Notes under the pieces: generated by a model
What the model was told of the DNA's origin: nothing
Databases searched by the model: none
The model's input: only the letters and a program-made list of their open reading frames with translations
Made by a program: the position numbers and the translations under genes
Source: Leptogorgia sarmentosa
Lineage: Eukaryota
Assembly (NCBI GenBank): GCA_964658305.1
Contig: OZ210884.1
Span: 7,750,001-7,814,000, forward strand
Reading direction: 5' to 3'
Length of the DNA stretch: 64,000 bases
Shown: piece by piece, positions 18,099 to 19,866 of the stretch
Position numbering within the stretch: position 1 is the stretch's first letter
How the letters are laid out: the number at the start of each line of letters is the position of its first letter

Positions 18099-19866
18099 AT
18101 GAACTATTGCATTTTTCTTATTATTTTTGGGTGCTCTTTATGTCAGTGGTCAAATGGAATGAGCATTTCAAAGAGTAAAGGTAAGACGTTCTTAAGTTTG
18201 ATTTAGCAGTTAGTTTGAGTATAACGTTATTATTATAATGTACCTGTATTATATATTAATACACATTTAAAATAACTATAAGGCCCGTTTCATACGTCAA
18301 ATTTTGGTCGCATCGAAATCCAATTCAAACAGTAGATAAAAAATTGAGTGATCTCATTATCCATTGAAACCATGAAACGGGCCTAAAACGACCTTTCTCG
18401 CCAAAACCATATACATACAGTAGGTAAATAACTATTATGCTGTATAATTATATTCATTGAAAATACATCGTTTCAATTATTCGCATACAAACGCGACAAT
18501 TGTGTTCAAAATTTCTCTAGAATATATTTTGGCGTCATAATAACAGTACAATAATTAAATATTGCCCTAATTGCTGCATGGAATTATATATAAACTGGAT
18601 TATTGCGTGGGGAATGCTTTCTGATGACGCTTAGACGTCTGGACTGGACATTCATCTTCCTTGGCGAAATAATTTTCGCATTTGAAATTTTGTGTCAAAT
18701 TTGGACGAGAAAATATTTTTTCTTTTTATGTGAAATTTCCCATTAAAAACTTTTATTTCACGTGTGTTTTATATGTATTAGGAAACTGTTTTTTTTATTT
18801 TATTATATTCGTCAACCAGAGTCGAGACCATTGGATATCGCCACAACAGCATACCCAACACCAAACGACTACCGTGAGTCCTTTCCATATGCCCCCCCCC
18901 CCCGGTCAATGTGATATCATTCACGGAATTTTGTTAACAGTTCGGTCACTCCTGTCTGATCACGAAACTCAGCATCGTCATGATTATATTAATTAATTGC
19001 AAAGTCAGTTAGAAATGACAAATTCTAATAAAGATAATAATTGTCGCAATTTAATAGCACAGTTAATAGTTCAGTGAAGTTGTTTTATTTAGCCGTTTCG
19101 ATACAGGGTGGTATCTTTGAAATTCAAATTAGCCGCATGCGCATTTCATCATTTAATCGCTCGCAGGACGTTGCCTCAATATCCCATAGGTACGAAGCAT
19201 ATCAAATAAACAGACGATATCCTGTGCGCGAGCTTCAAGTCAGTCTATATATAATTGCACGAAAACTTACTCAAATGTATTATTATTAAATTGCAGCAGC
19301 AGCTTCTCGGCTAGTTTGAATTTTTAATGTTTCCCATTAATGAAAAACATGGAACTATCTCGAGTATGTCGCTCAGAAGTAGCTAAGATAATAGAATTAT
19401 CATTTTCTTATTACGATTAAGAACACATCGGTGAGGACGAAACAGAACCAGTGGACAACCAAAGCGATGAAAATGAGAAAGATCACGAACATGAAGTTAG
19501 TGATGATGATGATGGTGATGAAAATGAGAAAGATAAAGATAATAATAAGGACGAAAGTAACAAAACAAACGTAAGATTTTTTCTTTTTCTTGATGATCAG
19601 CATCCCTTGCACCGGCTCATTCATAGTTCATCGTTTAAGGTTTTCGAATTAAGGGCAACCTTATTTGAATCACCTATATATATTTATTTTAGAAAAGTTT
19701 CCCTTTTCCAAAATTTATAATAAAAAGAGGTCCATTGAGTGGTGTACCGTATTTTCGCCGCCCGTTCATGATGAGAGTTTTACGCCAACCAATTCCTATG
19801 TCGTCGCGGTTATTTCGAAGATTTGGTCCGAACCGTTATAAGTCGTGGTTCGCGCGGTTTGGATAA
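18099..19866 (+). CDS. Secreted precursor (152 aa): signal peptide, acidic pro-region, KR, cationic Arg/Pro/Phe-rich peptide ending RFG-stop; candidate amidated antimicrobial or bioactive peptide
   Basis: Exons 18099-18180 (GTAAG donor, phase 1), 18820-18873 (GTGAG, phase 1), 19422-19570 (GTAAG, phase 0) and 19693-19866 join in frame (459 nt): MNYCIFLIIFGCSLCQWSNG-MSISKSKESRPLDIATTAYPTPNDYQHIGEDETEPVDNQSDENEKDHEHEVSDDDDGDENEKDKDNNKDESNKTNKSFPFPKFIIKR-GPLSGVPYFRRPFMMRVLRQPIPMSSRLFRRFGPNRYKSWFARFG*. Confidence 0.75.
18282..18383. mobile_element. MITE, PIF/Harbinger-like, internally deleted copy
   Basis: TIRs GGCCCGTTTCAT...ATGAAACGGGCC flanked by TAA. Full-length copy at 53409-53539. Confidence 0.75.

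What the first reader, a model, noticed from the sequence alone, without database searches (positions are those of the whole stretch)
18099..19866. Cryptic 4-exon precursor of a +10, C-terminally amidated (RF-amide) cationic peptide
Seen: four short exons join in phase to give a signal peptide, a strongly acidic spacer, IIKR and then GPLSGVPYFRRPFMMRVLRQPIPMSSRLFRRFGPNRYKSWFARF-G-stop (9 Arg + 1 Lys, no acidic residue, no Cys, rich in Pro and Phe). The ORF track shows only the acidic exon. Established: an acidic pro-part plus a cationic C-terminal peptide is the architecture of Hydra arminins, and a terminal Gly is the amidation donor. Inference: an undescribed cnidarian antimicrobial or cytolytic peptide, possibly also an RFamide-type ligand, since the internal RR sites and RRFG could release shorter peptides. 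I recognise no known sequence family for it.
Basis: partly seen in the sequence, partly recalled or inferred. Interest (0 to 1): 0.88.

Follow-up and report, generated by a model that had tools for sequence, protein, structure and literature searches.

The report
Soft-coral amidated cationic peptide gene family
A spliced, transcribed gene, likely from an octocoral, encodes a precursor predicted to release a 44-residue, strongly positive, cysteine-free peptide ending in Arg-Phe-amide; it has two relatives but matches no named family we searched, and is likely a new host-defence (antimicrobial) peptide.

Summary
The gene is real. The four exons join at GT..AG into a 152-aa frame. Spliced contigs from three samples of one study confirm all three junctions. 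The layout is signal-like N-terminus, acidic pro-region (net -13), Lys-Arg, a 44-aa peptide of net +10, Gly-stop. A neighbouring ABCC gene groups with octocorals. Two relatives turned up: a transcribed paralog in the same species and one unnamed 48-aa fragment, 65% identical, ending Arg-Tyr-Gly-stop. The basic site before Gly-Pro is kept in both; the amidation Gly is kept in the one relative whose end is visible. The internal Arg-Arg that could release short RFamides is not kept. Pfam, PDB, the ESM Atlas and paper searches gave no family. It is not an arminin but is built like one. Best reading: a new lineage-restricted family of linear host-defence peptides (0.55). A long RF/RY-amide signalling peptide (0.2) or a venom peptide (0.15) remain open. 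No activity is shown.

The parts
18099..18180 (+). Coding exon 1: predicted signal peptide (codons 1-20, 18099-18158) and start of the pro-region; phase-1 donor GTAAGA
   Evidence: hydrophobic core Kyte-Doolittle up to 3.06; covered by spliced contigs X4 from 18062 and X6 from 18093. SignalP not available.
18820..18873 (+). Exon 2, 54 nt, symmetric phase 1-1, optional (in-frame skip)
   Evidence: included in X5, skipped in X4 and X6
19422..19570 (+). Exon 3: acidic pro-region core (22 Asp/Glu in 49 aa, net -17)
   Evidence: junctions
19693..19866 (+). Coding part of exon 4: end of pro-region, Lys-Arg, mature peptide, Gly, stop
   Evidence: covered by X4, X5, X6 contigs
19723..19728 (+). Lys-Arg, predicted convertase site (Arg at the matching last position in the paralog; Lys-Lys in P0003)
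19729..19860 (+). Predicted mature 44-aa peptide, Gly-Pro N-terminus, net +10, about 5.4 kDa as the amide, ending W-F-A-R-F
   Evidence: 65% identity to P0003 over the 48 aligned residues
19861..19866 (+). Amidation-donor Gly and stop codon
   Evidence: R-Y-G-stop in P0003
19867..20300 (+). 3' UTR, at least this long in X5; AATAAA at 20078, 20092 and 20118
6637..7332 (+). Truncated duplicate of the upstream region and exon 1 (coding 7182-7263; one silent change; donor GTTTGA instead of GTAAGA); no exons 2-4 follow
   Evidence: blastn 93.9% over 717 columns and tblastn; sequence; comparison

Best explanation
The gene is a transcribed, spliced precursor, likely from an octocoral, predicted to be secreted and cut after Lys-Arg to release a 44-residue, cysteine-free, amidated peptide of charge +10 that likely acts as an antimicrobial host-defence peptide. 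Shown: exon structure, two splice forms, charge split, a transcribed paralog and one outside relative. Inferred from established prohormone processing: the signal peptide routes it into the secretory pathway, and the acidic pro-region (net -13) would neutralise the cationic tail until a PC1/PC2-type convertase cuts after KR. PAM would turn the last Gly into an amide, and the Gly-Pro start would protect against aminopeptidases. Inferred, untested: the Arg-, Phe- and Pro-rich peptide binds anionic bacterial envelopes and kills by permeabilising or crossing them, shaping the coral's microbiome as arminins do in Hydra.
For: Spliced contigs from three samples. Charge split -13 / +10, 43% hydrophobic residues, 9 aromatic residues, 6 Pro. 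Relative P0003 keeps 44 aa, net +9, basic-basic-Gly-Pro and R-Y-G-stop. The paralog is co-linear over the visible 107 nt; 12 of 20 codons read from the loose ends keep their residue, 6 of them with silent changes (read by eye). One peptide copy per precursor and identity spread along the whole 44 aa, unlike the short multi-copy octocoral neuropeptides (PMC6909153 section 12). Hydra AMPs are bipartite in charge, multi-paralog and taxon-restricted (PMC10945409 passages). Mussel myticalins pair a Pro/Arg-rich amidated peptide with an anionic pro-part across a KR site (PMC5577615 passages).
Against: No activity, localisation or peptidomics data. The best 11-residue helical moment (0.78) is reached by 1400 of 5000 shuffles; for P0003, 2213 of 5000, so there is no special amphipathic design. 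The mature core is the only part of the paralog that lay on this gene (exon 1 tested at 90%, exon 3 at 80%), whereas myticalins conserve the signal peptide and vary the mature part. That pattern fits a receptor ligand at least as well. The paralog carries an Asp in the mature region. The AlphaFold model is weak (pLDDT 61, pTM 0.28, two-sequence alignment).
Confidence: 0.55

Rival explanations
1. It is a long, single-copy RF/RY-amide signalling peptide (neuropeptide or hormone) that acts on a coral GPCR or DEG/ENaC channel through its C-terminal W-F-x-R-[F/Y]-amide, possibly with antibacterial activity as a second role.
For: W-F-x-R-[FY]-G-stop is kept in P0003, with an RF/RY exchange. Pro at position 2 is the protective N-terminus of octocoral neuropeptides (PMC6909153 section 12). 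The mature part appears more conserved than signal or pro-region in the paralog. Hydra RFamide III and other neuropeptides are also antibacterial (PMC5614986 passages). RFamides act on GPCRs and DEG/ENaC channels (PMC13311285 passages).
Against: The octocoral neuropeptide families described in PMC6909153 section 12 are 4-5-residue peptides, several stated to be multi-copy, and the RFamide has G-R-F, not A-R-F. No hit in the protein collections that include annotated octocorals and hexacorals, although short divergent peptides would be missed. A net charge of +9 to +10 is unusual for a receptor ligand (recalled).
Confidence: 0.2
2. It is a venom or mucus defence peptide aimed at animal prey or predators, either cytolytic or an RFamide mimic acting on acid-sensing channels, as conorfamides do.
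For: Acidic pro-part plus dibasic site is also the layout of cnidarian toxin precursors (recalled). An actinoporin gene lies 42 kb away (PF06369, E 6.8e-51). Venom RFamide mimics exist (PMC13311285 passages), and short W-R-P-R-F-amide acts on ASIC3 (PMC12738692 abstract), which resembles the W-F-x-R-[FY] ending only loosely.
Against: The one octocoral venom proteome read names Cys-rich toxins, saposins and pore formers; the words 'linear', 'cationic' and 'amidat' do not occur in its main text (PMC11896702; supplements not available). A gene 42 kb away is weak context. No marked amphipathicity.
Confidence: 0.15
3. The precursor is processed further, or not at the KR site, so the working product is not the 44-mer: either a short C-terminal amide cut at a single basic residue, or an uncleaved acidic/basic secreted matrix protein.
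For: Cnidarian prohormones are also cut at acidic residues (PMC6909153). The site is Lys-Lys in P0003, a weaker convertase site (recalled), and has no Arg at P4. The pro-region has three N-glycosylation sequons.
Against: 31 of 48 positions are identical with P0003 and spread along the whole peptide, including its N-terminal G-P-x-S-G-V. The internal dibasic site is not conserved.
Confidence: 0.1

Closest known systems
Hydra arminins (arminin 1a-C)
   Same: Cnidarian; cysteine-free, amidated, strongly cationic C-terminal peptide (31 aa, +13; PMC6217004 Table 1); paralog family; charge-bipartite precursor (general statement for Hydra AMPs in PMC10945409; the acidic arminin pro-part itself is recalled).
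   Different: Arminin genes are confined to the genus Hydra. No sequence likeness to arminin 1a-C by eye. Here 44 aa, +10, with a Met/Ser/Pro-rich middle and an RF/RY end.
Mussel myticalins
   Same: Linear Pro/Arg-rich amidated AMPs of 23-42 aa, KR site, anionic pro-region, multigene family (PMC5577615 passages).
   Different: Their anionic part lies C-terminal to the peptide, the signal peptide is conserved and the mature part is hypervariable. Here the order is reversed and the mature core looks the more conserved part. Different phylum, no sequence evidence of kinship.
Octocoral neuropeptides (Antho-RFamide pQGRFamide, GPRGamide, GPRRamide, PPFHamide)
   Same: Amidated C-terminus, RF ending, Pro at position 2, acidic spacer (PMC6909153 section 12).
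   Different: Those are 4-5 residues and typically many copies per precursor. This is one 44-aa peptide and lacks G-R-F.
Anthozoan AMPs (damicornin, AmAMP1, digitiferin, crassicorin, Pd-AMP1, equinins)
   Same: Secreted anthozoan peptides with antibacterial activity.
   Different: Damicornin, AmAMP1, crassicorin and digitiferin carry 6-10 cysteines; Pd-AMP1, the one soft-coral AMP listed, is a beta-hairpin. This peptide has no Cys. Equinin sequences were not compared (abstract only).
Long bilaterian RF/RY-amides (NPY/NPF, QRFP, PrRP, kisspeptin)
   Same: Single-copy peptides of 30-50 aa ending RF- or RY-amide (recalled).
   Different: No Pfam hit for exon 4 at E up to 1 and no PDB hit of note. 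The resemblance is limited to the last two residues and length.

Membership tests
Arminin | Occurs in the genus Hydra | tested here: not met
   The flanking ABCC groups with octocoral ABCCs at 100/100 (22 hand-picked of 120 listed hits, no medusozoan among them). Arminins are Hydra-only.
Arminin | Sequence homology to arminin 1a-C | tested here: inconclusive
   Only compared by eye with the sequence in PMC6217004 Table 1: no alignable stretch seen. No computed alignment.
Arminin | Acidic pro-part followed by cationic, Cys-free, amidated C-terminal peptide | tested here: met
   (amidation predicted from Gly-stop, not observed)
Arminin | Bactericidal activity; endodermal expression | not testable with these tools
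   Contigs give no tissue or level information.
Cnidarian GRFamide (Antho-RFamide) preprohormones | C-terminal G-R-F-amide | tested here: not met
   A-R-F-G here, P-R-Y-G in P0003
Cnidarian GRFamide (Antho-RFamide) preprohormones | Many short peptide copies per precursor | tested here: not met
   One terminal copy; the internal R-F-G is followed by Pro and is not conserved
Myticalin-type linear Pro/Arg AMPs | Order signal - mature peptide - KR - anionic extension | tested here: not met
   Order here is signal - anionic region - KR - mature peptide (PMC5577615)
ShK-type coral AMPs (damicornin, AmAMP1, digitiferin) | Six or more cysteines, ShK fold | tested here: not met
   No Cys in the mature peptide; no Pfam hit
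Linear amphipathic alpha-helical AMPs (functional class) | Amphipathic helix with high hydrophobic moment | tested here: inconclusive
   Two helices in a low-confidence model; best moment 0.78, reached by 1400 of 5000 shuffles

The most novel reading that the evidence does not exclude
This is the first long, single-copy RF/RY-amide signalling peptide family in a cnidarian: a 44-aa amide whose W-F-x-R-[F/Y] end drives a coral receptor while its +10 body kills bacteria, a cnidarian parallel to NPY/NPF- or QRFP-type peptides and a direct link between coral nerve signalling and microbiome control.
Probability: 0.12. Interest if true: 0.8.

Novelty: new variant of a known kind. Interest (0 to 1): 0.5.

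Why it matters
The AMP reviews read list one soft-coral AMP, and most listed anthozoan AMPs are cysteine-rich. A linear, amidated, +10 peptide family from an octocoral would be a new scaffold that is cheap to synthesise and test, and a handle on how these corals manage their microbes. It also shows a class of gene that protein databases barely hold: one fragment among about 15 billion proteins. If the conserved RF/RY-amide end proves to be a receptor-binding motif, it would bear on the open question of where long RFamide peptides come from.

Tried and rejected
No whole genome is held for this window, so paralogs could not be listed. The look-up of sequencing runs: no RNA holder listed on record; three holders proved to be spliced when laid. 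Contig depths (paralog 86, 34 and 46 against 8.9, 5.4 and 12.6 for this gene) cannot rank expression and were not used as evidence. The higher X1 depth upstream of exon 1 (352 against about 74-95 over introns and exon 3) is only a hint of extra copies. Homology searches: longer proteins, 0 hits from 1 candidate; profile of two sequences at near length, only P0003 of 2 candidates; 50% representatives, 2 hits, of which P0004 (509-aa bacterial repeat protein, E 6e-4) was rejected as chance. Metagenome contigs: 0 of 228 pattern matches confirmed and 0 matches to a degenerate pattern. PDB: 3 hits at E 0.7-1.4, unrelated. ESM Atlas: blank for both peptides, which shows nothing. Pfam: 0 families for exons 3 and 4. 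Six exact motifs in full text: 2 papers, both unrelated by title and abstract. Earlier scan findings: nothing in 5 look-ups. The AlphaFold model was too weak for a fold search, which was not run. No complex prediction was run. The copy at 7182 was checked as the source of the paralog transcript and rejected: it has exon 1 only. A link to the GPCR at 38.8-39.9 kb was considered; there is no evidence beyond distance. SignalP and ProP are not available. The original arminin paper was not held.

Full report
Observation. Each intron begins GT and ends AG, and the 459 coding bases give 152 residues and a stop. Residues 1-20 have a hydrophobic core (Kyte-Doolittle window up to 3.06) and end Ser-Asn-Gly, which fits the small-residue rule for signal peptidase (rule recalled; SignalP not available). 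Residues 21-107 have net charge -13; exon 3 alone has 22 Asp/Glu in 49 residues. After Lys-Arg come 44 residues of net +10 with no Cys and no acidic residue, then Gly and the stop. In the window's six frames, 28 of 1153 stop-terminated segments have a tail of +9 or more, 4 of these end in Gly, and only this one ends R-[FY]-G.

Splicing. Six public runs hold the stretch, none on record as RNA. When laid, the contigs of X4, X5 and X6 (three samples, one study) cover exons and 3' UTR, skip the introns at GT..AG and so behave as transcripts. X5 joins 18180/18820, 18873/19422 and 19570/19693. X4 and X6 join 18180/19422 and 19570/19693, so exon 2 is skipped in frame and the precursor is 134 aa with the same C-terminal peptide. 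The last junction appears in table 5c because a repeat in exon 3 was skipped by the tool. The 36 letters before 19693 are window 19535-19570, and the record positions leave exactly 77 letters for 19494-19570. The DNA-like runs show none of these joints (X1 laid over all junctions, X2 over the last one). X4 and X6 cover ATG to stop in one contig; the X5 contig starts 41 bases after the ATG. This is one study, and contigs say nothing about level or tissue.

Organism. The ABCC4-like gene just upstream has its highest identities with Paramuricea (54%) and Dendronephthya (53%) (the five rows with higher bit scores are arthropod proteins at 37-44% identity). In a tree of 23 rows (the window's sequence plus 22 that I picked from 120 listed hits; no medusozoan among them) it groups with the three octocoral rows at 100/100, outside them. 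An octocoral is likely. A lineage away from those two genera, such as Scleralcyonacea, is possible, but a paralog effect would look the same.

Family. Two relatives were found. First, a paralog in the same species: a second contig in each of X4, X5, X6 and in DNA run X2 matches 19756-19802 with 4-5 differences in 47 bases and continues in frame on both sides. Read by eye from the 30-base loose ends, 12 of 20 codons keep their residue (6 with a silent change) and 8 change (4 conservatively). It keeps Arg-Gly-Pro at the cleavage site and F-G-P, and has an Asp in the mature part. Its C-terminus is not visible. Its 239 upstream bases did not lie on exon 1 at 90% or on exon 3 at 80%. Second, P0003, an unnamed 48-aa product from a Logan contig, E 8e-13, 65% identical, beginning Lys-Lys-Gly-Pro and ending R-Y-G-stop, with a predicted 44-aa peptide of net +9. 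I do not know whether it comes from the same species. Nothing else was found in the protein collections, metagenome contigs, Pfam, PDB or ESM Atlas; a short divergent peptide would be missed by these. Within the window, a tandem duplication of about 10.85 kb (ABCC gene, 98% identical) carries a second copy of exon 1 at 7182 with a weaker donor and no further exons. It is a truncated relic, not the paralog.

What the relatives say about processing. Kept: a basic residue before Gly-Pro (all three), R-R-P-F and R-Q-P-I-P-M-S (window and P0003; the paralog aligns there at about 91% in DNA), F-G-P (all three), and W-F-x-R-[FY]-G-stop (window and P0003). Not kept: the second Arg-Arg (Arg-Lys in the paralog, Gln-Met in P0003). 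The first Arg-Arg is followed by Pro, and the internal F-G by Pro-Asn.

Mechanism. By established prohormone biology (recalled), the precursor would enter the secretory pathway, the acidic pro-region would mask the cationic tail, a convertase would cut after Lys-Arg, and PAM would amidate the C-terminus. Pro at position 2 protects octocoral peptides from aminopeptidases (PMC6909153 section 12). A lineage-restricted paralog family with a charge-split precursor matches how Hydra AMPs are described (PMC10945409 passages). The composition recalls myticalins, linear Pro/Arg-rich amidated AMPs with an anionic pro-part (PMC5577615 passages). I put antimicrobial host defence at 0.55. Against it: the helical moment is ordinary (1400 of 5000 shuffles reach it; 2213 of 5000 for P0003), the AlphaFold model is weak (pLDDT 61; helices at exon-4 residues 20-30 and 39-56), and the mature core seems better conserved than the signal and pro-region, the reverse of myticalins. 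That pattern and the RF/RY end keep a signalling role at 0.2; Hydra RFamide III shows that the two roles can coexist (PMC5614986 passages). A venom role is at 0.15. RFamide mimics are known from cone snails (PMC13311285 passages; PMC12738692 abstract), but the parts I read of an octocoral venom proteome describe no such linear peptide (PMC11896702: part 2 of 9 of the text, passages, and part 1 of 2 of section 20; supplements not available).

Comparison with known families. It is not an arminin (Hydra-only; no likeness by eye to arminin 1a-C in PMC6217004 Table 1), not a GRFamide precursor, not a ShK-type coral AMP (PMC12496222, PMC11767717 and PMC12466427 passages) and not a myticalin. Equinins were seen in abstract only (PMC11051070). 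It works, most likely, like an arminin. Nine literature searches, including six exact motifs, found no description. The library lacks most subscription papers and does not search supplements, so this is not proof that it is unpublished.

Verdict. A real, spliced, unnamed peptide-precursor gene with at least two relatives: a new sequence family within a well-known precursor type. Function is inferred only. Interest 0.5.

Noticed in passing
window 1-17265 (+): Tandem duplication of about 10.85 kb: ABCC4/MRP4-like transporter copies 98% identical (1-6458 against 10850-17265), each followed by exon 1 of the peptide gene; could be a real duplication or partly a haplotype artefact.
   Followed up: partly
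window 26013-31584 (+): Multi-exon gene or genes with repeated 4-Cys modules (C-x6-C-x8-C-x6-C-x3-C type; exons near 26473, 28477, 29777, 31060), a very acidic exon followed by R-R-K-R-R and a basic tail (26731-27339), and a Lys-rich last exon ending Gly-stop (31581). No Pfam hit for the acidic exon. Possibly another secreted peptide precursor; splicing not checked.
   Followed up: partly
window 61869-63039 (+): Actinoporin-like gene (PF06369, E 6.8e-51) with introns, an acidic short exon near 62277 and K-R before the mature part. The exon at 61869 reads as a signal peptide followed by an unusual W-W-R-R-M-R-R-R-R stretch and may be its first exon.
   Followed up: partly
window 42851-44068 and 48127-49338 (-): Two tandem fucosyltransferase-like frames, 88% identical in DNA; the first gives weak FUT8/NodZ Pfam hits below the cut-off.
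   Followed up: no
window 38761-39909 (-): Single-exon rhodopsin-family GPCR (PF00001, E 1.5e-20); no evidence that links it to the peptide.
   Followed up: no
window 18067-18102 (+): An 11-codon upstream frame whose TGA stop overlaps the main ATG (ATGA); it lies inside the X4 contig, which starts at 18062.
   Followed up: no
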